Source of the DNA: an uncultured Candidatus Saccharibacteria bacterium
GTDB taxonomy: Bacteria; Patescibacteriota; Minisyncoccia; Phycocordibacterales; XYD1-FULL-46-19
DNA length: 48,066 nucleotides
Reading direction: 5' to 3'
NCBI GenBank assembly: GCA_964355855.1
Contig: CAYHFD010000003.1
Coordinates: forward strand, 11,487 to 59,552
Part shown: positions 2,222 to 37,566 of the stretch, piece after piece
Layout: each line of letters opens with the position of its first letter
Position numbering within the stretch: the stretch's first letter is position 1
The notes under the pieces: model-generated
What the model saw: the letters and a program-made list of their open reading frames with translations, nothing else
Told to the model about the DNA's origin: nothing
The model's database searches: none
Position numbers and translations under genes: made by a program

Positions 2222-2365
2222 ATGGCTATTTTAACATAATTATGTGTTATAAAAAAATCAGAAAAGAAGAAAAAGAAGTGGAAAAAGGAAAAAAAGGGGT
2301 CAGCCATACTCCCCCGCCTACAAGAAGTGATTTATCTTGAGCTAGTCGAAAGAGGAAGTTGGGGT

Positions 2366-2404
2366 AAAAGAAAACCGCCCTCCAACGGTTTTCGTTGGGG
2401 GCGG
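2366..2404 (-). terminator. Cassette terminator T1 (13-bp GC stem, AAAA loop, TTTTCTTTT tail)
   Basis: Minus strand: CCCGCCCCCAACG-AAAA-CGTTGGAGGGCGGG then TTTTCTTTTACCCC, 5 nt after the stop of the 107-aa ORF. Homologous to T2. Confidence 0.6.
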
Positions 2405-2409
2405 GCTGA

Positions 2410-2733
2410 TTAAGAATGACGTTCGACTGCGCCCTCATTTTCAAACCAACCATGTTCATCCACACAGCCGATGAGACATACACATAGTTCTACATCATCG
2501 GAAGTCAGAAACACGGTGTCGATTTCTTTCAGGGCAGACGGATGTCCGATCGGAAGCACCTGCTCAACCAAAGCATCCCACCCCTGGCCATGGTACAAGC
2601 TAAAGCATACTACCTCACCAACATCTACTTCACCTACTCCTGGACGCCCGAGGTCTCTTGGTTCTACAACCTTAGAAAATCTAAGGTCACAACAATCAAT
2701 GATGATGAGCAGCAGTTTTTTTGTAACTTTCAC
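2410..2733 (-). CDS. Hypothetical 107-aa protein (cassette 1)
   Basis: GTG start preceded by GGAGAGGAGG at 7 nt spacing. GC-rich relative to neighbours. Bracketed by the shared leader and terminator modules. No family recognised from the sequence. Confidence 0.55.
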   Translation of the reverse strand: MKVTKKLLLIIIDCCDLRFSKVVEPRDLGRPGVGEVDVGEVVCFSLYHGQGWDALVEQVLPIGHPSALKEIDTVFLTSDDVELCVCLIGCVDEHGWFENEGAVERHS

Positions 2734-2768
2734 AGCGAACCTCCTCTCCGGTTGTTTCTAACCCATTC

Positions 2769-2825
2769 CTACCACACTTCTGTAAATTTGTTAACAATGG
2801 CTCCGTCACCCGCAGGAAGTGAGAA
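2769..2825 (-). promoter_or_regulatory. Shared cassette leader/promoter module L1
   Basis: Minus strand: TTCTCACTTCC-TGCGGGTGAC-GGAGCC-AT-TGTTAACAAATTTACAGAAGTGTGGTAGGAAT. TTAACA-N17-TAGGAA can be read as -35/-10. TGTTAACA is a perfect palindrome. Confidence 0.45.
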
Positions 2826-2830
2826 CTCAT

Positions 2831-3478
2831 TTACTTCTTCATTAAGATAAAGAAATGAGAATGCTTCTTTTTTAGTTTTGGAAAATAATTTGTTATTTGT
2901 TGTATTTTGATAAGAGAAAAATCTTTAATCAGCTCTAGGGCTTTTTCATAATCTACATAGGTATGAGGTACGTTCATTTCGGGACCTTCGGTCTTTATTA
3001 AAGTAAAATCATCTATTCTGTTTTCTTTATACTTTTCCCAGGAGTCTGTTTCTTTTGAGGTAAGGGTTATAAATGCTTCGCCCCCTGGTTTCAGTACTTT
3101 GTGGACATTTTTTAATGTTTTTTCCAAACCATTAAGATCAGCATGATGAACGGTATACATAGAAAGTACAGCGTCAAAAGACTCTTCTTCGTAGGGAAGA
3201 TCTAACATATCTCCAACTTGGATATCAATTGGCAGTTCTAAATCTCTTACTTTTTCTTTAAATGTATCAACACCGTCCTGTGCCAAATCAAAGGCGCTCA
3301 CATCAAAACCTTGATTTGCTAAAAAAATTGAGTGCCTACCGGTGCCACATCCAAGATCTAAAACAGTATTAACTTTCTGTTCTTTCCATCTTTTTATAAC
3401 GAGAATCACTTGTTCATCAGGTGTTTCCCAGTATGGGTTACTCACTTTATTCCAAATCCAGGGTTTTGATTCGATCAT
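2831..3478 (-). CDS. Class I SAM-dependent methyltransferase
   Basis: Motif I VLDLGCGTGRHSIFLANQGFDVSAFDL; motif post-II DAVLSMYTVHH; 215 aa. Confidence 0.85.
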   Translation of the reverse strand: MIESKPWIWNKVSNPYWETPDEQVILVIKRWKEQKVNTVLDLGCGTGRHSIFLANQGFDVSAFDLAQDGVDTFKEKVRDLELPIDIQVGDMLDLPYEEESFDAVLSMYTVHHADLNGLEKTLKNVHKVLKPGGEAFITLTSKETDSWEKYKENRIDDFTLIKTEGPEMNVPHTYVDYEKALELIKDFSLIKIQQITNYFPKLKKKHSHFFILMKK

Positions 3479-3513
3479 GTGACTTATAGTATCTCATTGT
3501 AGTTATAAAAAGT

Positions 3514-3552
3514 CTCGAGCTCCGCGGGCTCGAGGAAGTGAGGAAGTTGGGT
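3514..3552 (-). repeat. Partial copy of the cassette flank module plus GC hairpin (terminator-like) after the hydrolase gene
   Basis: Minus strand: ACCCAACTTCCTCACTTCC then CTCGAGC-CCGCGGA-GCTCGAG then ACTTTTTAT. The CCAACTTyCTCACTTCC string recurs at 6064-6084 and partly at 2351-2364. Confidence 0.45.
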
Positions 3553-3565
3553 TATACTAAAAAAA

Positions 3566-4159
3566 TTATGACTTGATATTTCCCACCAATTTAGGGAAAT
3601 CGTTCTGTAGGAAGTGACCTTTGTCTTCAAAAGAAACAAGGGTGGCATCAGGCAAATTCCTTTTATATTTATGCACATCAGCATATGGAACCGAGGTGTC
3701 ATCTTGGCTGTGATATAAATATATCTCGCCTGCTTGCTTCCTCAGCCCCTCCAGACTTTCGGTCAAAGCAAAGTCAGCCAGTGATTCATCGCAATCAACA
3801 TCGTCATAAGGAGCGACCACCAAGTGAACAGATTTTATTTTCTTCGGGAAATCATTTTCCGATAGATATTTAGTTAAAAATATCCCACCGAGCGAATGCC
3901 CTACCAGAATCACTTCATCACGCAAAAGTGGAAACAATTTTTCAAACCAAATCTTCCACTCTTCGTAGCGAGCATTTTTGGCATTTGGCATTTTAGGGTA
4001 TATCACTTCAAACTCAGGCAAGGCTTCACCGAGATTATCCTTCCAGTCCTTTCGATTGAGCTTTTCTAGGGTTATCTCGCAGGAATTTAGATACTCCATA
4101 TACTCCTCGTAGGTTTCGAAGGTGGTACCACCGTGAATTAATACAATTTGTGATTTCAT
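3566..4159 (-). CDS. Alpha/beta hydrolase (YdeN/RBBP9-like serine hydrolase)
   Basis: 197 aa. Nucleophile elbow ILVGHSLGG. Size and layout fit the small COG3545-type esterases. Confidence 0.7.
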   Translation of the reverse strand: MKSQIVLIHGGTTFETYEEYMEYLNSCEITLEKLNRKDWKDNLGEALPEFEVIYPKMPNAKNARYEEWKIWFEKLFPLLRDEVILVGHSLGGIFLTKYLSENDFPKKIKSVHLVVAPYDDVDCDESLADFALTESLEGLRKQAGEIYLYHSQDDTSVPYADVHKYKRNLPDATLVSFEDKGHFLQNDFPKLVGNIKS

Positions 4160-4161
4160 AA

Positions 4162-4695
4162 TTAAATTTTAGCTAAAAGATCTAGTAACTCTGGCTCCAC
4201 TATTCCTGGCACAAAGTGTGATTTTTCTTCCTCGGTCAAGTTCTGCAACCTTCCAAGTGGCCAAACTTCAAAACCTTGGGATTTACCCTCCTCTATCTTA
4301 AGGTCAGCCAAGTTTCCATTGTAGATATATACAAATTGCTTTTTGAAAGTATTGTTTATTTTACCACTAACAAGGTCATCTGATTTAAGTCTGATTTTTC
4401 TTAAAAACTTTAAATCCTCCATTTTAGCCTTAATACCAGTCTCCTCCTCCATCTCCTTCAAAGCCGTGTCTTCATAGTTCATACCCAAATCGACATGGCC
4501 ACCCACAGTCGCATCCAGCATGTCTGGAAAGGTATCTTTGTCTTTAGCTCTAAGCTGAAGAATTAGCTCCTTATTGGGCGTCAAAAACCAGACATGAGTT
4601 TCGCGGTGCAGGAGCCCCTCTTTGTGTATTTTTCCCCTTGCCTCCTCCCCGATTATTTCGTCGTTTTCATCGACAATGTTTAGTTTTTCTTCCAT
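4162..4695 (-). CDS. NUDIX hydrolase
   Basis: Nudix box GGHVDLGMNYEDTALKEMEEETGIK. 177 aa. Its stop is 2 nt from the start of the hydrolase gene. Confidence 0.85.
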   Translation of the reverse strand: MEEKLNIVDENDEIIGEEARGKIHKEGLLHRETHVWFLTPNKELILQLRAKDKDTFPDMLDATVGGHVDLGMNYEDTALKEMEEETGIKAKMEDLKFLRKIRLKSDDLVSGKINNTFKKQFVYIYNGNLADLKIEEGKSQGFEVWPLGRLQNLTEEEKSHFVPGIVEPELLDLLAKI

Positions 4696-4733
4696 ACCAA
4701 AACTCTAGCAGTTTAGAGCCAAAAAGTCATTCG

Positions 4734-4769
4734 TGTAAATTTGTTAACACGCGGCTCCCCCGGGCGGGG
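4734..4769 (-). promoter_or_regulatory. Truncated leader module L4 in front of the Nudix gene
   Basis: Minus strand: CCCCGCCCGGGGGAGCC-GCG-TGTTAACAAATTTACA, fused directly to terminator T2. TTTACA-N18-TAAACT is a possible promoter. It lacks the GAGGTGTGGTAG part of L1-L3. Confidence 0.4.
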
Positions 4770-4771
4770 GT

Positions 4772-4811
4772 AAAAGAAAACCGCCCTCCCACGGTCTTCC
4801 GTTGGGGGCGG
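4772..4811 (-). terminator. Cassette terminator T2
   Basis: Minus strand: CCGCCCCCAACGG-AAGA-CCGTGGGAGGGCGG then TTTTCTTTTACCCC, 15 nt after the stop of the NDT-like ORF. Confidence 0.6.
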
Positions 4812-4826
4812 ACGAAAGAAACAACC

Positions 4827-5309
4827 CTAACAGGAAGAGACCGCCTCGTGGATTTTACTTGCCAATTCGTGATAATAACCCACAAACTCTTCCAAGGTGA
4901 TAGCAAAACATGGAAAGTAGATGAAGATCGTACCATCTTGTTGGAGCATGGCGTTCAATCCTACCTCCCGCTCAACCGCGGTCCGAAAATCTGTGCGGTA
5001 CAGAAGAGCTCGGCCGGTCGCAGTCATAGCGTGGCCATATTCAACGCAAGTCCCACTATCGGCATCTGCTCCATCGGCACACCCGACATATAAATTATCG
5101 GAATTCTCGGACGCCGCGCGACAATCTCTCACTATCCCCTTTACGTCAAACGTAAAATCGGTGGGATTTTGAAACTTAAGGGCCTCACGCTGGGGCACAA
5201 TGACATTGTGCCCCAAACGTAGCAAGTGTTCCTCCAAGTGCATGATATGCTGACGTTCCCCGGCATTAAACAGGCCCCCTGCCAAATATAAATTCAACAT
5301 TCGTCTCAC
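4827..5309 (-). CDS. Nucleoside 2-deoxyribosyltransferase-like protein (cassette 2)
   Basis: N-terminal LYLAGGLFNAGER and DADSGTCVEYGHA match the NDT family signatures (xYLAGPxF ... DxGTxxExG). AAAGGAGGTG SD lies 6 nt before the ATG. Confidence 0.8.
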   Translation of the reverse strand: MRRMLNLYLAGGLFNAGERQHIMHLEEHLLRLGHNVIVPQREALKFQNPTDFTFDVKGIVRDCRAASENSDNLYVGCADGADADSGTCVEYGHAMTATGRALLYRTDFRTAVEREVGLNAMLQQDGTIFIYFPCFAITLEEFVGYYHELASKIHEAVSSC

Positions 5310-5338
5310 CTCCTTTCAAGGTTTTGTCTAACTAACCT

Positions 5339-5396
5339 CTACCACACCTCTGTAAATTTGTTAACACGAGGCTCCCCCACCTACGGGAAGTGAGAA
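5339..5396 (-). promoter_or_regulatory. Shared cassette leader/promoter module L2
   Basis: Minus strand: TTCTCACTTCC-CGTAGGTG-GGGGAGCC-TCG-TGTTAACAAATTTACAGAGGTGTGGTAGAGG. Confidence 0.45.
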
Positions 5397-5453
5397 TTTT
5401 GACTCAAAAGAACCTCTTCCATAAACCTTCGAAAATCATGTTAAAATGACTTT

Positions 5454-5939
5454 GTGACTAAAACGAACATTTATATTGACGGAAACAATTTATATCGCGG
5501 AGCCAAAGAGCTTGGTTTCGAAATTGATTACAAAAAATTTTATGGTTGGCTTCGACAAAAATATAGCACTACTAATATATATCTTTTTATCGGTCTCGTT
5601 CCCACGAGAACCAAGTTTTATGAATATCTTCAAGAATGTGGTTTTATTCTGGTTTTCAAACAAACTGTCTCCGTCGGCGGAGTAGTTAAGGGTAATTGCG
5701 ATGCCGAACTGGTATTGAAAACTGTTTCTGATTTTTATACCAAAGCGTTTAATAAATGTATTCTTATTTCTGGTGATGGAGACTTTGGTTGTTTAGTGAA
5801 ATTTTTAAATGATAACTCTGTTTTAGATCGAATTATTTCACCCGATGAAAATAAGTGTTCAATTTTATTAAGAAATAAAAATACGGAGATTACTTTTCTC
5901 AACGAACACTATCACAAATTTTCTAAAAGATTATCTTAA
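5454..5939 (+). CDS. NYN/LabA-like (PIN-related) nuclease domain protein
   Basis: IYIDGNNLY ... ILISGDGDFGCLV are the acidic motifs of NYN/LabA proteins. GTG start 6 nt after TAAAAT (5442-5447). Confidence 0.8.
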   Translation: MTKTNIYIDGNNLYRGAKELGFEIDYKKFYGWLRQKYSTTNIYLFIGLVPTRTKFYEYLQECGFILVFKQTVSVGGVVKGNCDAELVLKTVSDFYTKAFNKCILISGDGDFGCLVKFLNDNSVLDRIISPDENKCSILLRNKNTEITFLNEHYHKFSKRLS

Positions 5940-6013
5940 GTTAATACCCCAAAAAGAAAAAGCCCCCGATGCAGACGTATCTACATAAGGGTCTTTTCCA
6001 TAGTTATGCTTAT

Positions 6014-6042
6014 ATGATATGGCTTTCAGATAAAATTGTCAA
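6014..6042 (-). promoter_or_regulatory. Orphan consensus-like promoter (leader-module variant L5) pointing into the 3' end of the NYN gene
   Basis: Minus strand: TGTTGACA-ATTTTATCTGAAAGCCA-TATCAT (TTGACA-N17-TATCAT), directly after the T3 flank CTCACTTCC. Only a 6-codon ORF follows, then the hairpin ATGTAGA-TACG-TCTGCAT and a T-rich run. Confidence 0.4.
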
Positions 6043-6083
6043 CAGGTACTTCCGCCGGCTCGAGGAAGTGAGAAAGTTGGGGT

Positions 6084-6122
6084 AAAAGAAAACCGCCGTT
6101 CGGGATGGGACCGATACGGCGG
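6084..6122 (-). terminator. Cassette terminator T3
   Basis: Minus strand: CCGCCGT-ATCGG..CCCGAA-CGGCGG hairpin, then the same TTTTCTTTTACCCCAACTTTCTCACTTCC tail as T1. It starts 23 nt after the stop. Confidence 0.55.
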
Positions 6123-6145
6123 TAAATAGTGATTCGGGTACGAAC

Positions 6146-6840
6146 CTACCTTGACCCAGGACAGGGGTAAACCAAACGGCCCAGACCGCCAGGTACTTTG
6201 TCGGCCGCCCCGCAATTCTCGCAGACGAGGTCGCACACCGACGAGTCAGAATACCGCGTCTGATGGCTTGGGTGGACTTTGTCCAAATCCTTATGGAACC
6301 AGCGAGAAATTTCCTGATCATACTTCGCTGTGTGCTTGAAAACCATGGCCGCGAACGCCCGTCGTGTTTCAAGTAGGGTGTCTCCATAGTGGAGGATCTC
6401 GGCAATCACCAAGTCGTAATACTCGGGATCACACACCACCGTCACCAACTCATAGTTCTTCGCCGCGGCGCGAAGAAGGGAGGGACCGCCAATGTCGATC
6501 TGCTCGATCTCCGGCTTACCCTGGAAATCGTAGAGATTGACGATGACCAGGTCGATCGTCTCAATCCCTCGCTCCGCGATTACTCGCAGGTGTTCGGGCT
6601 TTTTTCGGTCGGCCAAGATTCCCCCAAAAACGTGCGGATGAAGGGTCTTCAGTCGACCTCCATCATCTCCGGAAAGCCGGTTACGTTCTCAATACCAACA
6701 CAACGTACACCAGCCTGATCCAGGGCGGTCGCCGTCCCACCCGTCGACATCACGCCCCAGCCAGCATCGGCGAGGGTCTTTAACTTGTGAAGATCTGTTT
6801 TATTGGTGACAGACACCAACATCCTTCTCTGCTCTAACAT
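6146..6840 (-). pseudogene. Stand-alone PurH N-terminal (MGS-like / IMP cyclohydrolase) domain gene, interrupted by a 1-nt frameshift (cassette 3)
   Basis: SVTNKTD, STGGTA, FPEMME|GRLKTLHP, GGIL, VIVNLYDF and IDIGGPSLLRAAAKN are collinear with the PurH IMP-cyclohydrolase domain. The frame breaks between MME and GRLK at 6659-6660. There is no AICAR-transformylase domain. The C-terminal tail has CxxC...C. Confidence 0.8.
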
Positions 6841-6891
6841 AACCCGTTCCTTTCTTTTTGCGTGTTCACGGTAGATACTCCAAACAAACTA

Positions 6892-6935
6892 CTACCACAC
6901 CTCTGTTGATTTGTTAACACCTGGCTCCCGGCAGG
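6892..6935 (-). promoter_or_regulatory. Shared cassette leader/promoter module L3
   Basis: Minus strand: GATCCTGCCGGGAGCC-AGG-TGTTAACAAATCAACAGAGGTGTGGTAGTAG. The first 16 nt are a decayed copy of the tRNA-Asn 3' end. Confidence 0.45.
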
Positions 6936-6936
6936 A

Positions 6937-15167: not shown

Positions 15168-15492
15168 CTCCCCCGGCAGGGATCGAACCTGCGACCAATC
15201 GATTACACTAATCCTAAAATTACTCCTAGGGGTGGACTATATCATCACCATATCTTTTGAGACTTAGGTGCGAGGCGCTTCCGCTCCAAATAAATCGGAG
15301 AGTACTCCCTTTCGGGATAGTCTCTGAACCTGCCTTCACTTGCTTGCAATTCGAAGCTTTAGCGAAGGATTGGCTGCTGATTACCCATTTATATTGGGCT
15401 TCCAGCAATTCACCTCGTTTACTCTTCTGGATTTCTCCAGAAGGCTGCATATGACTATACAGTCGATTGCTCTACCGCTGAGCTACAGGGGA
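15168..15492 (-). tRNA. tRNA-Asn(GUU) interrupted by a group I intron in the anticodon loop
   Basis: Exons 15492-15459 and 15205-15168 fold into a perfect cloverleaf. Acceptor UCCCCUG/CGGGGGA; D stem GCUC/GAGC; anticodon stem AUCGA/UCGAU with loop CU-GUU-AA; T arm GCAGG-UUCGAUC-CCUGC. U1-A72 and G73 match bacterial tRNA-Asn. No CCA is encoded. Confidence 0.85.
15206..15458 (-). ncRNA. Group I intron (IC3-like), 253 nt, no ORF
   Basis: The 5' exon ends in U, which can form a U.G pair (exon CUGU with intron GCAG). The intron ends in G. It contains CAGAGACUA and GAUAUAGUCC, the P7/J8-7 core strings seen in cyanobacterial and Azoarcus tRNA introns. Confidence 0.75.
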
Positions 15493-15613
15493 ATATATTT
15501 GCTCTCAAAGAACAACGAAATGATAACACAAAAAACCTAAAAAACAAGAAATAGTTATGGGTTATTAAACTAGCCCATCCATCCTCATTTTATCCACCAT
15601 ATTTACACCTAGT

Positions 15614-15641
15614 ATTCTAATATTCTTGAGAATATTAGAAT
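15614..15641. promoter_or_regulatory. 28-bp palindromic operator (12-4-12) overlapping the arsR-family promoter
   Basis: ATTCTAATATTC-TTGA-GAATATTAGAAT. Arms are perfectly complementary. It overlaps the -35 element. Confidence 0.6.
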
Positions 15642-15685: not shown

Positions 15686-15952
15686 ATGAAAACACCCAAA
15701 CAGTTGGAAAGATATTTTAAAGGAGTGGCCAATCACCGACGCCTGGAGATAATATTTCTCATCAAAAAACATAAAGATTTAACGGTTGGTGACATTGCCG
15801 AAAAACTTAAGGTGAATTTTAAAACGATTTCTCAACATTCTCAACGACTTGTCCAGGCTGGCCTACTCAATAAAACATACCGGGGGCTAGAGGTTATACA
15901 TTCACTCTCCCCCTACGGCCATAAGTTCTGTCAATTTGCCCAACAATTCTAA
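15686..15952 (+). CDS. ArsR/SmtB-family HTH transcriptional regulator
   Basis: 88 aa. ANHRRLEIIFLI..., wHTH LTVGDIAEKLKVNFKTISQHSQRLVQAGLL. Confidence 0.85.
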   Translation: MKTPKQLERYFKGVANHRRLEIIFLIKKHKDLTVGDIAEKLKVNFKTISQHSQRLVQAGLLNKTYRGLEVIHSLSPYGHKFCQFAQQF

Positions 15953-15973
15953 TATTCTCAAGAATATTAGAAT
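15946..15973. promoter_or_regulatory. Second copy of the 28-bp operator, upstream of pepF
   Basis: ATTCTAATATTC-TCAA-GAATATTAGAAT is the exact reverse complement of 15614-15641. It overlaps the regulator stop codon and lies about 40 nt before the pepF ATG. Confidence 0.6.
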
Positions 15974-35363: not shown

Positions 35364-36488
35364 TTATTTAATACCTGTTAGCACGCCGTTCTTAATCACT
35401 TGCACTTTCACTGGGGTGTTGGCGCTAGCGTGGTCGGTAGTAAAACTAATTTTACCATTGATAGTTTTAAATTCAGTGGTCTCAAGATAAGTAGCCACCT
35501 GGTCGGTACTTTCGGCTTTAGCAATCGCTTCCGCTAAAACATAGACCGTATCATAGACCTTGTCGGCCGATTTAGCGGGACCGATACCATATTTCTTAGT
35601 GAAAACTTTTTCAAAGTCAGCACTGCTGGTCTCCCAGTTTAGGACCACCACTCCCTCCAGCAAAGTCTTGTCAACATCAGCATTCTGCAAAGCGTCTAAA
35701 ATGAGTACGTGGGTAATAATCGTCGGCGTGTAACCCAGTTCCTTCGAGCGCTGGAGAAAGTTCAAGGTGTCAATATCAAGCGCATCAATAAAAACAGTGT
35801 CGACACCAGCTGTTTTCAGCTTCAACACCGTGGTGCGAAAATCATTACCGCCCAAAGTGTTGTAACTTTCGTCGAGCACAGCTGGCTTCCCTAGACCCAC
35901 CATCACGGTGTTCAAGGTCTTGGCAATCTCGGCGCCGAACCCCGAGTTGTAGTGGACCACCGCCACTTTTTCCGCTTTGCTGTCTTTCAAGTAGCCCTCA
36001 AGGGTGGCCACAACTTTACTAAAGTCGGAAAGCATAACAAAGCTGTAGTCATTGAGGTCAAAACTGCCCGCAATACGAAAGTTGGTCGGTGAAATAAGGG
36101 CAATCTTTTTTGACAGGGCTAAAGGCATAAGCGGTTGGGTCGTAAAATCCCACAAACTGCCAATTACCCCTTCCACCTTGTCGACATCAACCAGTTTATT
36201 GAAAGCAGTCACGGCCTTGGTTGGGTCGGTCACATCGTCTTCAATAGTTATTTCTACTGGTCGGCCATCGATACCGCCATTATTATTTATTTCCTCTTCC
36301 GCTAGCACAAGCGCCTTTTGGGCGTATTCGCCAGTACCAGCCGCCACGCCTGTCATAGAAATGACCGCCCCAATCTTTATCGGTTCCCCTGTCGCCGGTG
36401 TCACTGCTTTATCTTTTTGGGCGTACCAAATCCCACCCAAGATGATAACGATGATTAGGACGACAATGGTGATGATTTTATTATTCAT
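35364..36488 (-). CDS. ABC substrate-binding protein, LivJ-like (paralog 6)
   Basis: MNNKIITIVVLIIVIILGGIWYA anchor, GEPIKIGAVISMTG, INNNGGIDGRPVEITIEDD. Confidence 0.85.
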   Translation of the reverse strand: MNNKIITIVVLIIVIILGGIWYAQKDKAVTPATGEPIKIGAVISMTGVAAGTGEYAQKALVLAEEEINNNGGIDGRPVEITIEDDVTDPTKAVTAFNKLVDVDKVEGVIGSLWDFTTQPLMPLALSKKIALISPTNFRIAGSFDLNDYSFVMLSDFSKVVATLEGYLKDSKAEKVAVVHYNSGFGAEIAKTLNTVMVGLGKPAVLDESYNTLGGNDFRTTVLKLKTAGVDTVFIDALDIDTLNFLQRSKELGYTPTIITHVLILDALQNADVDKTLLEGVVVLNWETSSADFEKVFTKKYGIGPAKSADKVYDTVYVLAEAIAKAESTDQVATYLETTEFKTINGKISFTTDHASANTPVKVQVIKNGVLTGIK

Positions 36489-37566
36489 ATTTTACAAATT
36501 GATTATCTTTTATTGTTTTTAAAATAAGCGGCAAAGCAAATTCATTACCTTCAATAGACCCGTACACACCAAGGGCTCCTTCAAAATCCTGAACCGAGGT
36601 AAGATATTTCATTATTGCTTCCGTCGAAGACCGTTCTCTTTCTGAAGCCTGGCTTAACATTAGAATGGCATCATACATATGAGCCGACCCTGGTCCGGGC
36701 GCCTTTTTATACACTTCCGTATATTTATTAGCAAACCATAGCTCTGGGTCAGCGGCTTGAGTATAGACCACGCCATCGAGAGCCCCTTGGGCAGAAGTTA
36801 GAGTTTCTTCACCCTCAATAAAATTGAAACCGACAAAGTCTCCTGTGTATCCCAAAGTCTTGGCCTGACGAGCAAATTCGCCGGCCCTACCCGGCAAGAG
36901 GCCAACAACTATCACTTGGGGCTTCTGGGCTAAAATCTTGGCAATAGATGTCCTAAAATCTTTAGTGTCGGGAGCGACTTGTTCCGTGGCTACTTCCTTA
37001 GCAGAAAAGCCCGCTGTCAATTTTAGACTATTGTAAGCCGCTTGAATGCCGTCGTGGACAGCAACAACTGAAGCAATTTTCTCGTATTCTTTATCATTTA
37101 AAAATTCCCCGATTTTCTTTCCTTCTTCCGCCGTTGAGATTTCTAAACGAACAACATTTTCTCTATCTTTTTGAACTGGCGCCGAGGCAATAGCGATGAG
37201 CGGAATATCAAGCTCATCCGCGAGTGGTGCCAAAGCCGAACACGGGCTTGATGTAAAGCAAACGACCAGATTTATCTTGTCGACAGAAACTAATTTATTA
37301 AACGCCGACACTGACTTTATTGGATCAAAAGCATCATCTTCGATCAGAAGTTTAATATCCTTTTTCTCTTTTTCTGACAGACCATCGTAGGCAAGCATGG
37401 CACCATTTTTAGCATTTTCTCCGAGAGAAGCCACTTCGCCAGACAAAGGTAAAATGAGACCTACTTTATAAACATTACCGGTCTCTTTGTCTCCGTTTGC
37501 ATACCAAATCCCGCCCAAGATGATGACGATGACTAAAACGACGATGGTGATGATTTTGTTGTTCAT
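36481..37566 (-). CDS. ABC substrate-binding protein, LivJ-like (paralog 5, more divergent)
   Basis: The anchor matches paralog 6 at 22 of the first 23 residues. YKVGLILPLSGEVASLG. Its stop overlaps the next gene's start by 8 nt. Confidence 0.8.
   Translation of the reverse strand: MNNKIITIVVLVIVIILGGIWYANGDKETGNVYKVGLILPLSGEVASLGENAKNGAMLAYDGLSEKEKKDIKLLIEDDAFDPIKSVSAFNKLVSVDKINLVVCFTSSPCSALAPLADELDIPLIAIASAPVQKDRENVVRLEISTAEEGKKIGEFLNDKEYEKIASVVAVHDGIQAAYNSLKLTAGFSAKEVATEQVAPDTKDFRTSIAKILAQKPQVIVVGLLPGRAGEFARQAKTLGYTGDFVGFNFIEGEETLTSAQGALDGVVYTQAADPELWFANKYTEVYKKAPGPGSAHMYDAILMLSQASERERSSTEAIMKYLTSVQDFEGALGVYGSIEGNEFALPLILKTIKDNQFVKYE

What the first reader, a model, noticed from the sequence alone, without database searches (positions are those of the whole stretch)
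2352..6935. Array of self-contained promoter-SD-ORF-terminator cassettes built from recycled flanking modules
Three short minus-strand ORFs (2733-2410, 5309-4827, 6840-6146) share the same flanks.
- Leader: each is preceded by GGAGCC-N2-3-TGTTAACAAAT(TT/CA)ACAGA(G/A)GTGTGGTAG (+ coordinates 2769-2805, 5339-5375, 6892-6928).
- SD: then a purine-rich SD (GGAGAGGAGG-N7-GTG, AAAGGAGGTG-N6-ATG, AAAGGAA-N7-ATG).
- Terminator: each is followed within 25 nt of its stop by a GC hairpin plus TTTTCTTTTACCCC (T1-T3).

Partial modules also occur without a cassette, at 3514-3552, 4734-4769 and 6014-6060. Essentially no other gene in the window has an SD (checked by eye upstream of rpoB, rpoC, rpoD, dnaG, trmD, the liv genes, pepF and others). 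The cassette ORFs are richer in GC than their neighbours; my hand count is 34/60 at 4981-5040 versus 19/60 at 3001-3060. The window is patchy overall, so GC alone is weak evidence.

The pattern looks like modular, independently expressed, horizontally acquired gene cassettes. No recombinase is visible.
Basis: seen in the sequence. Interest (0 to 1): 0.72.

Follow-up and report, generated by a model that had tools for sequence, protein, structure and literature searches.

The report
Gene-cassette array anchored at tRNA-Asn
In a tiny groundwater bacterium (a Vogelbacteria-like member of the Candidate Phyla Radiation), a tRNA-Asn gene is followed by a row of mostly single-gene cassettes separated by one recycled terminator / tRNA-end / promoter-like / ribosome-site junction, and related genomes have the same junctions around unrelated genes, so it looks like a gene-capture and expression platform.

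Summary
The 28-nt leader occurs three times and the tail GGTTTTCTTTTACCCC three times, only within 2.3-7.2 kb of the 48-kb window.

Corrections:
- The third "ORF" is a frameshifted purH-N pseudogene.
- The AT-rich genes between the cassettes are also bounded by junction pieces.

New findings:
That gene lies at 15165-15493 and is split by a group I intron, so ARAGORN missed it.
- The same junction lies directly after, or downstream of, the pepF-linked tRNA-Asn in three other Vogelbacteria-like lineages, one with at least 10 tandem cassettes. Only one cargo gene is shared.
- Three relatives without a tRNA-Asn at this locus have no island.
- Two cassette ORFs have strong Shine-Dalgarno sites in an otherwise leaderless host.
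- No recombinase was found in the window or in the related island ORFs scanned. There are no Rfam, phage or plasmid matches and no integron attC consensus.

Best reading: a tRNA-anchored, integron-like or tycheposon-like accretion island whose junctions also act like T4 PeSL terminator-promoter modules. The architecture is well supported. Promoter activity, the recombination mechanism and the enzyme are inferred. I rate it a new variant of known kinds.

The parts
15165..15493 (-). tRNA-Asn(GUU) gene split by a 253-nt group I intron (15206-15458). Its 3' end, TTCGATCCCTGCCGGGGGAGCC, is the sequence repeated in the cassette junctions, so this is the anchor of the island.
   Evidence: Rfam Intron_gpI scores 94 bits. 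The spliced exons are called tRNA-Asn(gtt) by ARAGORN. Homologous intronless tRNA-Asn genes are in L005 and L029. GGGGGAGC occurs only 5 times in the window, all in this system.
14400..14585 (-). Copy 1 of a composite unit: a degenerate, displaced tRNA-Asn 3' end (AGGTTCTAACCTCATCTATCCAACGGAGC), then a terminator hairpin, then a structured element of about 120 nt whose 5' part is an inverted copy of the tRNA 3' end.
   Evidence: It is 90.8% identical to copy 2.
6922..7115 (-). Copy 2 of the same unit. Its 3' end, GATCCTGCCGGGAGCC, is a direct copy of the tRNA-Asn 3' end and is fused after 3 nt to the first leader, giving an attL-like joint.
   Evidence: The RNAalifold consensus has 36 pairs, 17 of them with compensatory changes across 5 copies. 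The fold is -45.3 kcal/mol, z -3.1.
6892..6928 (-). Leader A, copy 3: GGAGCC-AGG-TGTTAACAAATCAACAGAGGTGTGGTAG.
6146..6840 (-). Cassette cargo 3: a PurH N-terminal-like gene (MGS domain plus the N-terminal part of AICARFT_IMPCHas) broken by a 1-nt frameshift near 6650. It is a pseudogene with a weak SD.
   Evidence: The same frameshift is in L006, L008, L009 and L017.
6010..6123 (-). Junction F: hairpin T3, the tail TTTTCTTTTACCCC, AACTTTCTCACTTCC, the core CTCGAGCCGGCGGAAG, and a near-consensus sigma-70 promoter (TTGACA-17-TATCAT, 6014-6042). No gene follows the promoter.
5454..5939 (+). NYN-domain gene. It is AT-rich (0.31), leaderless and inverted relative to the array.
5339..5396 (-). Junction E: TCTCACTTCC, then CGTAGGTGGGGGAGCC (a copy of the tRNA 3' end), then leader A copy 2.
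4827..5300 (-). Cassette cargo 2: a protein of the nucleoside 2-deoxyribosyltransferase family, with a strong SD (AAAGGAGGTG).
   Evidence: Pfam PF05014, E 2.8e-10. SD duplex energy -13.2. One weak PDB match, 7o62, E 8.8e-5.
4734..4811 (-). Junction D: hairpin T2, the tail, CCCGCCCGGGGGAGCC (an exact 11-mer of the tRNA 3' end), and leader variant B (TGTTAACAAATTTACACGAATGACTTTTTGG). TTTACA-18-TAAACT is called promoter-like.
   Evidence: The same variant B is in L004 at 4266-4304.
3566..4695 (-). A two-gene unit: Nudix (4162-4695) and an alpha/beta serine hydrolase (3566-4159). Both are AT-rich and lack an SD.
   Evidence: The hydrolase is 82% nt and 91% aa identical to L004 3615-4224, but sits between different junctions there.
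3514..3562 (-). Junction C: ACCCAACTTCCTCACTTCC, then CTCGAGCCCGCGGAGCTCGAG. The core matches the L005-type tRNA-Asn 3' end and forms a 7-bp hairpin.
2831..3478 (-). SAM-dependent methyltransferase gene. It is AT-rich (0.34) and leaderless, with TATAAG 4 nt before the ATG.
2769..2825 (-). Junction B: TCTCACTTCC, then TGCGGGTGACGGAGCC, then leader A copy 1.
2410..2733 (-). Cassette cargo 1: a 107-aa ORFan with a strong SD (GGAGAGGAGG) and a GTG start.
   Evidence: No Pfam or PADLOC family. The only hit among 5.8 billion proteins is itself. The AlphaFold model is uninformative, pLDDT 42.
2290..2404 (-). Hairpin T1, the tail, and the distal, degenerate junction A (AACTTCCTC...TCACTTCTTGTAGGCGGGGGAGTA). 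This is the last recognisable module.
   Evidence: The T1 stem is 97.7% identical to L005 3289-3331 and 92.9% to L004 3565-3606, where it follows unrelated ORFs.

Best explanation
The region is the module-bearing part of a hypervariable island anchored at the 3' end of an intron-containing tRNA-Asn(GUU) gene next to pepF.

**Anatomy.** The island is made of small units of one gene, sometimes two. They are separated by a composite junction of about 100-130 nt with these parts, in order:
1. A cassette-specific GC hairpin followed by TTTTCTTTTACC(C/T)(C/T)AA(C/T)TTTCTCACTTCC. This looks like an intrinsic terminator for the upstream unit plus a conserved arm.
2. A 9-20-nt copy of the tRNA-Asn 3' end, ending in GGAGC(C). 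This is an att-like core.
3. Two or three nucleotides later, TGTTAACAAAT-N8-GTGTGGTAGnnnT. This could be a promoter with -35 TTAACA, a 17-nt spacer and an extended -10.
4. A conserved 5'UTR of about 30 nt, a GGAGG Shine-Dalgarno site and the start codon of the next unit.

**Proposed mechanism.** Units entered one at a time. A recombinase encoded elsewhere in the genome, or on a helper element, recombined a cassette-borne core with the tRNA-Asn 3' end or with an existing junction. Each new unit pushed older ones outward. Homologous exchange between the near-identical junctions then shuffled, inverted and deleted units, which left the partial modules.

**Consequence.** Because each junction carries a terminator, promoter-like element and ribosome-binding site, captured ORFs would be expressible in a host whose own genes are leaderless.

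**Shown:** the repeats, their identity to the tRNA end, the tRNA anchoring in four lineages, the cargo turnover, and the contrast in SD use and GC.

**Inferred:** promoter and terminator activity, one-at-a-time site-specific insertion, and the trans-acting recombinase.
For: **The repeats are real and local.** They are statistically unexpected and confined to the island.

**The core is the tRNA end.**
- The window's tRNA-Asn ends in ...TTCGATCCCTGCCGGGGGAGCC.
- GGGGGAGC occurs 5 times in 48 kb: in the tRNA, in junctions D and E, and inverted in the two structured elements.
- 6925-6945 reads GATCCTGCCGGGAGCC and is fused to a leader.

**The tRNA-to-leader joint is seen directly.** In L029 an intronless tRNA-Asn ends in GGGGGAGCC. 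Three nucleotides later come the leader, SD, an ORF, a hairpin and the tail.

**The anchor is shared.** The pepF / tRNA-Asn locus carries arrays with these junctions in L004 and L033 (Vogelbacteria) and in L005. L005 has at least 10 units that run to the contig end.

**Relatives without the tRNA have no island.** Three relatives (L030, L032, L038) have conserved right-hand synteny but no tRNA-Asn at this locus, and no island.

**A boundary polymorphism sits at the core.** In Vogelbacteria, L004 has tRNA...GGGGGAGC|AAAATTT, while L001 and L034 have other DNA (TauE)...GGGAGC|AAAATTT. The sequence to the right is identical in both.

**Cores from another host type are present.** Junctions C and F carry CCCGCGGAGC, the 3' end of the L005/L031-type tRNA-Asn, not that of the window's own tRNA.

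**Cargo turns over.** Only the hydrolase is shared between islands. Cargo 1 is an ORFan.

**Junctions are better conserved than core genes.** Junction pieces are 76-100% identical between genomes whose pepF genes are about 70-71% identical at the nucleotide level. One hairpin stem recurs after five unrelated ORFs.

**Translation signals look foreign.** Strong SD sites occur only on cassette ORFs, in a leaderless host.

**The general process is established.** Serial integration at a tRNA, with partial tRNAs scattered through the island, is described for tycheposon islands (bioRxiv 10.1101/2020.12.28.424599) and in Islander (PMC4383910).
Against: - No integrase or recombinase domain was found in the window ORFs scanned (those of 110 aa or more, except 35364-36488 and 36481-37566, plus the small island ORFs), nor in the L001 and L005 island ORFs scanned.
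- There is no cassette presence/absence polymorphism among 17 near-identical contigs.
- In most junctions the match to the tRNA is only 6-11 nt. The core could have been copied along with the junction rather than made by separate integrations.
- Some L005 junctions lack the core altogether. In one, a terminator is fused straight to the leader (about 4570-4620). In two, the tail is fused to TGGTAG (about 3300 and 1330).
- The -10-like hexamer lacks the conserved final T, and the consensus scan did not call it.
- The family is rare and so far seen in only four related lineages.
- Whole genomes could not be scanned.
Confidence: 0.55

Rival explanations
1. PeSL-like shuffling only. The junction is a composite terminator, promoter and RBS regulatory module. 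Units are gained, lost and swapped purely by homologous or illegitimate recombination between these near-identical modules, as in the hyperplastic regions of T4-type phages. The GGAGCC piece is a relic of one old integration that was then copied along with the module.
For: - The conserved block runs from just after the stop codon to the start codon, as in PeSLs (PMC2839356).
- Modules occur in many partial or recombined forms: tail only, CACTTCC plus core only, tail fused to the -10, terminator fused to the leader.
- Cargo consists mostly of ORFans.
- No recombinase was found.
Against: - It does not explain why arrays sit at tRNA-Asn in every lineage, or why relatives lacking that tRNA at the locus lack an island.
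- It does not explain the precise tRNA-end|leader fusion in L029 and at window 6925.
- It does not explain cores that match another host's tRNA-Asn.
- The junction was not found in any phage collection.
Confidence: 0.25
2. A decaying remnant of one large integrative element, such as a prophage, ICE, or integrated plasmid, that entered tRNA-Asn once. The repeated junctions are that element's own reiterated regulatory regions, and nothing moves at the level of a single cassette.
For: - tRNA 3' ends are classic integration sites (PMC4383910).
- There is a pseudogene (cargo 3), partial modules and an inverted gene.
- There is no polymorphism within the Hainich population.
Against: - Four lineages carry the same junctions with almost entirely different cargo, in different numbers and order.
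- The hydrolase sits between different junctions in two genomes.
- There are no phage, plasmid or conjugation genes and no matches to phage or plasmid collections.
- The mixture of two tRNA-Asn core types implies more than one event.
Confidence: 0.12
3. Hairpin-directed single-strand transposition. Units bounded by a hairpin and a fixed short target (...TTAC C...) are moved by an HUH-type (IS200/IS605 or RAYT-like) enzyme encoded elsewhere, like palindrome-associated mini-elements.
For: Every unit ends in a variable GC hairpin followed by an invariant TTTTCTTTTACC that contains TTAC. A small hairpin often lies between CACTTCC and GGAGCC.
Against: - No TnpA or RAYT was found.
- The hairpin plus U-tract is fully explained as an intrinsic terminator.
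- This model gives no account of the tRNA anchoring.
- The small left-hand hairpins are not more stable than shuffled sequence (z -0.8 and +1.2).
Confidence: 0.05
4. A classical integron, or a CALIN (a cluster of attC sites lacking an integrase).
For: It is a co-oriented array of mostly single, often ORFan, genes with variable hairpins and conserved ends.
Against: - No IntI was found.
- R''(RYYYAAC)...R'(GTTRRRY) pairs do not occur at any cassette junction. Two pairs were found, both at one unrelated locus, against 0.95 expected by chance.
- The units carry their own promoter-like and SD modules.
- The anchor is a tRNA gene, not an attI site.
Confidence: 0.03

Closest known systems
tRNA-anchored accretion islands, such as tycheposon islands of Prochlorococcus (bioRxiv 10.1101/2020.12.28.424599), tDNA islands catalogued by Islander (PMC4383910), and tandem ssrA islands of Dehalococcoides (PMC3146451)
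   Same: - A hypervariable island sits at a conserved tRNA 3' end in a streamlined genome.
- Partial copies of the tRNA 3' end are scattered through the island.
- New DNA is added next to the tRNA, pushing older DNA outward.
- Many units lack their own integrase.
   Different: - The units here are 0.4-1.2 kb, with one or two genes, rather than multi-kb elements.
- They share one composite terminator / core / promoter / SD junction.
- No integrase has been seen at all.
- The host is a CPR bacterium.
PeSL (promoter-early stem-loop) mobile regulatory cassettes of T4-type phages (PMC2839356, PMC4122927)
   Same: - A conserved intergenic composite spans stop codon, stem-loop terminator, promoter, SD and start codon.
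- It flanks mostly ORFan genes in hyperplastic regions.
- Partial and recombined variants occur.
- The proposed role is modular shuffling.
   Different: - This case is chromosomal in a CPR bacterium, not in a phage.
- It is anchored at a tRNA gene, and each junction contains a copy of the tRNA 3' end.
- The promoter is not a consensus sigma-70 site.
- There is no evidence yet for mini-circles.
Integron gene-cassette arrays
   Same: - The array is co-oriented and made of small, mostly single-gene units.
- Many cargo genes are of unknown function and turn over fast.
- Hairpins vary in sequence while the flanking ends are conserved.
- Pseudogenes are tolerated.
   Different: - There is no intI, no attI and no attC R'/R'' consensus.
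- The units carry their own promoter-like element and RBS instead of relying on a common Pc promoter.
- The anchor is a tRNA gene.
CIMEs and accretion of integrative elements in streptococci (review PMC5704250)
   Same: These are non-autonomous units bounded by att repeats. They accumulate in tandem at one site and depend on a recombinase supplied in trans.
   Different: CIMEs are deletion derivatives of ICEs or IMEs, several kb long, and have no shared expression module. No parent element is known here.

Membership tests
Integron | An intI tyrosine recombinase gene adjacent to the array | tested here: not met
   Pfam scans of the window ORFs of 110 aa or more (except 35364-36488 and 36481-37566), of the small island ORFs, and of L001 and L005 island ORFs found no Phage_integrase or any other recombinase domain. 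The rest of the genome was not available.
Integron | attC sites: an imperfect palindrome with R'' RYYYAAC and R' GTTRRRY, 50-140 nt apart, after each ORF | tested here: not met
   The island has only 2 such pairs, both at one locus that is not a cassette junction. Shuffles give a mean of 0.95. No attC covariance model was available.
Integron | Promoterless cassettes expressed from a common Pc promoter | tested here: not met
   Each unit is preceded by its own promoter-like element and SD, and followed by a hairpin plus U-tract. Function was not assayed.
PeSL-type mobile regulatory cassette | A repeated intergenic composite of promoter plus stem-loop terminator, running from stop codon to SD and start codon | tested here: met
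   Alignments of 9 leaders and 11 tails, hairpin energies and SD strengths, compared with the description in PMC2839356.
PeSL-type mobile regulatory cassette | Located in hyperplastic regions of T4-type phage genomes, with a consensus sigma-70 early promoter | tested here: not met
   The context is chromosomal, near rpoB/C, rpoD, dnaG and pepF. There are no hits in IMG/VR or INPHARED. Leader A fails the sigma-70 consensus scan.
PeSL-type mobile regulatory cassette | Recombination between modules that yields indels or mini-circles | not testable with these tools
   This needs read-level or PCR data. Partial or recombined modules are compatible with it.
tRNA-targeting integrative island (tycheposon or Islander type) | The island abuts the 3' end of an intact tRNA gene | tested here: met
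   The window tRNA-Asn is at 15165-15493. L029 has the tRNA followed after 3 nt by a leader. L004, L005 and L031 also show it.
tRNA-targeting integrative island (tycheposon or Islander type) | Displaced or partial copies of the tRNA 3' end mark unit boundaries | tested here: met
   GGGGGAGC(C) at 4754, 5371 and 6923, plus degenerate tRNA ends at 7090 and 14555. L031 has a perfect 21-nt repeat. L005 has CCGCGGAGC at 8 junctions.
tRNA-targeting integrative island (tycheposon or Islander type) | An integrase (tyrosine or serine recombinase) within, or at the tRNA-proximal end of, at least some units | tested here: not met
   None was found in the window, or in the L001/L004/L033, L005 or L029 stretches available.
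tRNA-targeting integrative island (tycheposon or Islander type) | Presence/absence polymorphism with breakpoints at the att core | tested here: inconclusive
   One boundary polymorphism at GGGAGC|AAAATTT separates the Vogelbacteria contigs L004/L033 from L001/L034. There is none among 17 Hainich contigs.
IS200/IS605-type or RAYT/REP hairpin elements | An HUH (Y1) transposase, and subterminal hairpins at both ends next to a fixed tetra- or pentanucleotide | tested here: not met
   No such protein was found. The only well-supported hairpin is the 3' hairpin plus U-tract. The left-hand hairpins fold no better than shuffled sequence.

The most novel reading that the evidence does not exclude
A previously undescribed gene-capture system of CPR/Patescibacteria. 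The tRNA-Asn 3' end, together with the adjacent structured element of about 135 nt that pairs an inverted and a direct copy of that end, would serve as the docking site. Mini-cassettes of 0.4-1 kb would each bring their own terminator, promoter and Shine-Dalgarno module. A dedicated, unlinked recombinase would insert and excise them. Functionally this would be an "integron with built-in expression signals", evolved independently of IntI/attC.
Probability: 0.3. Interest if true: 0.85.

Novelty: new variant of a known kind. Interest (0 to 1): 0.66.

Why it matters
CPR bacteria have tiny genomes, few recognised mobile elements and no genetic tools, and how they gain genes is poorly understood.

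- **Gene gain.** A tRNA-anchored array of ready-to-express mini-cassettes would be a concrete route for gene gain in these organisms.
- **Origin of cassettes.** It would add a new comparison point for the long-standing question of how integron-like cassettes arise. Here the conserved flanks abut unrelated ORFs within a few nucleotides of the start and stop codons.
- **Translation.** SD-led cassettes inside a host whose own genes are leaderless raise a testable question about which translation-initiation modes these bacteria use.
- **Tools.** The junction offers candidate promoter, RBS and terminator parts for CPR genetics.

If the units turn out to be immobile relics, the finding reduces to an ordinary, decaying tRNA-linked island with unusually repetitive regulatory regions.

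Tried and rejected
- **Known RNA families.** Rfam at gathering and at permissive thresholds found no riboswitch or sRNA in the leaders or junctions. The only hit was the group I intron.
- **Phage or plasmid origin.** Four pattern scans of IMG/VR and blastn against INPHARED and PLSDB gave no hit.
- **Cross-phylum spread.** This was rejected. The MAG labelled "Saccharibacteria" (CAZIIR01; L002 and L029) has 71% pepF identity and the same pepF-to-rpoC synteny as the window. It is a Vogelbacteria-like relative or is mislabelled.
- **The ParB-like 319-aa gene of the Vogelbacteria island as a marker of the element.** Its 83 homologues sit singly at unrelated chromosomal sites without the modules.
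- **Strain-level cassette gain or loss.** Seventeen near-identical contigs are all colinear with the window.
- **Integron attC consensus.** It is not present at the junctions.
- **Defence-system models.** PADLOC gave only generic methyltransferase and NYN domain hits for window proteins.
- **Cargo 1.** It is an ORFan, and its AlphaFold model has pLDDT 42, so no fold search was run.
- **Left boundary of the island by synteny.** The left neighbours of pepF in relatives (HI0933-like, DM13, ABC) are not present in the window or in the L016 extension.
- **Hairpin between CACTTCC and GGAGCC.** It is no more stable than shuffled sequence.

Full report

Yes. The 28-nt leader core TGTTAACAAATTTACAGAGGTGTGGTAG matches three times on the minus strand, at 2769, 5339 and 6892, with 0-2 mismatches. 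None are expected by chance and there are none elsewhere in the 48 kb. The tail GGTTTTCTTTTACCCC is exact three times. AACTTCCTCACTTCCTCGAGCC occurs twice. The repeat finder recovers the same families, including the partial copies at 3514-3562, 4713-4759 and 6048-6092. nhmmer profiles built from all copies hit the window only between 2330 and 6928. They hit nothing in six control loci from related genomes and give only one weak hit in a seventh, L031.

The hairpins in front of the tail are stable: -22.9, -22.4 and -21.5 kcal/mol. T1 and T3 have z about -4.8 and T2 has z -1.6.

The Shine-Dalgarno contrast is real. Anti-SD duplex energies are -12.7 and -13.2 for the ORFs at 2410 and 4827, and -5.9 for 6840. 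Almost all of about 43 other genes are above -4. Many of those have a TAnAAT box 5-10 nt before the ATG, so the host is largely leaderless.

GC differences are modest: 0.46-0.55 for the cassette ORFs, 0.42 for the window and 0.31-0.41 for the interleaved genes.

There are two corrections:
- 6146-6840 is a frameshifted PurH-N-like pseudogene, carrying MGS plus the N-terminal part of AICARFT_IMPCHas. The same frameshift is in independent contigs.
- The consensus scans call neither the leader as a sigma-70 promoter nor T1-T3 as terminators.

The region is not an assembly artefact. Seventeen contigs from other samples are colinear with it.

**2. What the junction really is**

Reading outward from the finding changed the picture. 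blastn of the window against related loci showed a second copy of the sequence just upstream of the first cassette (6930-7090) at 14398-14554. It also showed matches to a tRNA-Asn at 15158-15205.

The window has a tRNA-Asn(GUU) at 15165-15493, split by the group I intron that Rfam found. ARAGORN misses the gene but calls the spliced exons. Its 3' end is TTCGATCCCTGCCGGGGGAGCC.

- GATCCTGCCGGGAGCC at 6925-6940
- CCGGGGGAGCC at junction D
- GGGGGAGCC at junction E

GGGGGAGC occurs only five times in the window, all in this system.

The full inter-unit junction, seen intact in related genomes, has this order:
1. A unit-specific GC hairpin.
2. TTTTCTTTTACC(C/T)(C/T)AA(C/T)TTTCTCACTTCC.
3. A copy of the tRNA-Asn 3' end, ending in GGAGC(C).
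4. Two or three nucleotides, then TGTTAACAAAT-N8-GTGTGGTAGnnnT.
5. A 5'UTR of about 30 nt, GGAGG, 5-8 nt, and the start codon.

In the window there are about seven junctions between 7200 and 2290. The AT-rich leaderless genes lie between junction pieces just as the three SD-led ORFs do. These are Nudix plus hydrolase, the methyltransferase, and an inverted NYN gene.

**3. Comparative evidence**

Pattern scans found the leader in only 2 stretches among 185,579 species genomes and in 4 stretches among 241 million metagenome records.

Besides the window's own population (L003, L006), the junction family occurs in three other lineages:
- **Candidatus Vogelbacteria RIFOXYD1_FULL_44_32** (L001, L004, L033-L035).
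- **A 151-kb contig, Ga0156735_16** (L005).
- **MAG CAZIIR01** (L002, L029). It is labelled Saccharibacteria, but it has 71% pepF identity and the same pepF-VKOR-Sua5-...-rpoD-dnaG-rpoC synteny as the window, so it is a relative.

In all of them the array starts at the pepF-linked tRNA-Asn:
- In L029 the intronless tRNA ends in GGGGGAGCC. Three nucleotides later come the leader, SD, an ORF, a hairpin and the tail.
- In L005 at least 10 units follow the tRNA to the contig end.
- In L004 and L033 the island follows an intron-containing tRNA-Asn.

Three more distant relatives (L030, L032, L038) keep the right-hand synteny but have no tRNA-Asn there, and no island. L031 has the tRNA, a perfect 21-nt repeat of its 3' end and about 8 kb of small ORFs, but only a weak trace of the modules.

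Cargo differs almost completely. An all-against-all comparison finds only the hydrolase shared, at 91% aa identity between the window and L004. It sits between different junctions in the two genomes. Most cargo ORFs have no Pfam family. Cargo 1 has no homologue among 5.8 billion proteins.

Junction pieces are 76-100% identical between genomes whose pepF genes are 70-71% identical at the nucleotide level. One hairpin stem, CCGCCCCCAACGAAGACCGTGGGAGGGCGG, follows five unrelated ORFs.

Junctions C and F of the window carry CCCGCGGAGC. This is the tRNA-Asn 3' end of the L005/L031 type, not the window's own.

In Vogelbacteria, two contig types differ exactly at GGGAGC|AAAATTT. To the left is the tRNA in one type and TauE-side DNA in the other. 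To the right the sequence is identical.

**4. Mechanism**

The best-supported reading is a tRNA-Asn-anchored accretion island.
- Small units carrying a copy of the tRNA 3' end recombine with the tRNA end or with an existing junction.
- Older units are pushed outward.
- The near-identical junctions then allow homologous shuffling, inversion and deletion, which gives the partial modules.

Serial integration at a tRNA, with partial tRNAs scattered through the island, is established for tycheposon islands (bioRxiv 10.1101/2020.12.28.424599) and for tDNA islands in general (PMC4383910).

The junction doubles as an expression module. Its layout, from stop codon through stem-loop, promoter and SD to the start codon, matches the PeSL elements of T4-type phages (PMC2839356; PMC4122927).

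The following steps are inferred, not shown:
- **Promoter activity.** The candidate is -35 TTAACA, a 17-nt spacer and TGG-TAGnnn. The hexamer lacks the canonical last T, although a host leaderless gene at 13651 is preceded by TGGTAGAAT.
- **Termination** at the hairpins.
- **One-at-a-time insertion.**
- **The enzyme.**

No recombinase domain was found in the window ORFs scanned (110 aa or more except 35364-36488 and 36481-37566, plus the small island ORFs) or in the related island ORFs scanned. There is no cassette-level polymorphism in the Hainich population. Some L005 junctions lack the core.

I therefore put the architecture at about 0.85 and the site-specific mechanism at about 0.45, which gives 0.55 overall.

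The rivals are:
- PeSL-like homologous exchange alone (0.25).
- A decaying single integrated element (0.12).
- Hairpin-directed HUH transposition (0.05).
- A classical integron or CALIN (0.03). There is no IntI, and the attC R''/R' consensus is absent from the junctions.

**5. A second feature next to the tRNA**

Immediately after tRNA-Asn in L004, L005 and L031 lies a terminator hairpin followed by an element of about 135 nt. The same arrangement lies after two degenerate, displaced tRNA ends in the window, at 7115-6922 and 14585-14400.

The 5' part of the element is an inverted copy of the tRNA 3' end, interrupted by a hairpin. Its 3' part is a direct copy. The two copies pair with each other.

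With only five sequences, RNAalifold finds 36 pairs, 17 of them with compensatory changes. The ends track each host's own tRNA T-arm: GATCC in some hosts and GAGTCC in others. There is no Rfam match.

The element could be a folded docking site, comparable to attP, attC or attI, or a small RNA. In the window the two copies are direct repeats bracketing 7.2 kb of AT-rich genes (7203-14359).

**6. Novelty and score**

No paper in the searched library describes cassette arrays or integron-like systems in CPR bacteria. Each ingredient is known:
- tRNA-anchored accretion islands.
- Composite terminator-promoter modules.
- Arrays of single-gene cassettes.

The combination appears new: mini-cassettes with built-in expression signals, each junction carrying a tRNA-end core, in a leaderless CPR host, with no linked integrase. 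I rate it a new variant of a known kind, with interest 0.66. There is about a 0.3 chance that it is an independent, integron-like capture system, which would merit about 0.85.

Noticed in passing
window 15206-15458 (-), within tRNA-Asn 15165-15493; also L004 about 1381-1729: A 253-nt group I intron interrupts the anticodon loop of tRNA-Asn(GUU) in the window and in the Vogelbacteria genome. It is absent from the homologous tRNA in L005 and L029. ARAGORN therefore reports no tRNA in the whole window.
   Followed up: yes
window 6922-7052 (-) and 14400-14517 (-); L004 1760-1898; L005 6296-6418 (-); L031 9082-9228 (-): A conserved structured element of about 135 nt lies just downstream of tRNA-Asn. 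It pairs an inverted and a direct copy of the tRNA 3' end and carries two covarying hairpins (17 of 36 pairs compensatory in 5 sequences). It has no Rfam family. It could be a folded recombination site or a new small RNA.
   Followed up: partly
window, whole (for example upstream of 2221, 3478, 9395, 11286, 13651, 13733, 15082, 16013, 17860): Host genes almost all lack a Shine-Dalgarno site. Many have a TAnAAT-type -10 box 5-10 nt before the start codon, which suggests mostly leaderless mRNAs. pepF in L004 and L005 is the same.
   Followed up: partly
window 15615-15640 and 15947-15972: Two near-identical 26-bp palindromes (TTCTAATATTCTTGAGAATATTAGAA and ...CTCAAG...) flank the ArsR-family regulator gene (15686-15952), between tRNA-Asn and pepF. 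None are expected by chance. They are probably its operators.
   Followed up: partly
L004 2090-2150; L024 about 9940-10000; L026 about 9930-9995; L028 about 10080-10120: The ParB-like 319-aa family (83 homologues, no Pfam family) is scattered singly in Parcubacteria genomes. It carries its own conserved 5' leader, GGGTATATTTTnGGCGTTTTATCCC...TTCAAAACAAAACGC, which could be a cis-regulatory RNA or an operator.
   Followed up: no
L005 6540-6720 (-); L004 1180-1370 (+): Upstream of tRNA-Asn there is a second tRNA-like sequence (for example TTCCCCTGTAGGAGAGCGGTGGAG...CGACTGTTAATC in L004) with a long GC-rich insertion. ARAGORN does not call it. It may be a pseudo-tRNA-Asn or a tRNA with an insertion.
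   Followed up: no
window 15100-15135 (-) versus 14555-14585 (-): The C39-peptidase-like gene (14585-15082) that sits between the tRNA and the first displaced tRNA end is bracketed by an approximate inverted repeat (GGAGATAGAACCT / AGGTTCTAACCTCATCTATCC).
   Followed up: no
window 7203-8297 (-): A 364-aa class II aaRS-core protein (tRNA-synt_2, like AsnA or an AsnRS paralogue) lies directly beside the array, in the island anchored at tRNA-Asn. This may be coincidence.
   Followed up: no
L034 199-981: In one Vogelbacteria contig variant, DNA inserted ahead of the island encodes a 260-aa protein that matches the PADLOC candidate defence family PDC-S05 (E 2e-20).
   Followed up: no
L029, L037, L005 contig ends: Several assemblies of related genomes break within about 1 kb of the pepF / tRNA-Asn locus or inside the array. 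This is consistent with repeats or strain heterogeneity there.
   Followed up: no
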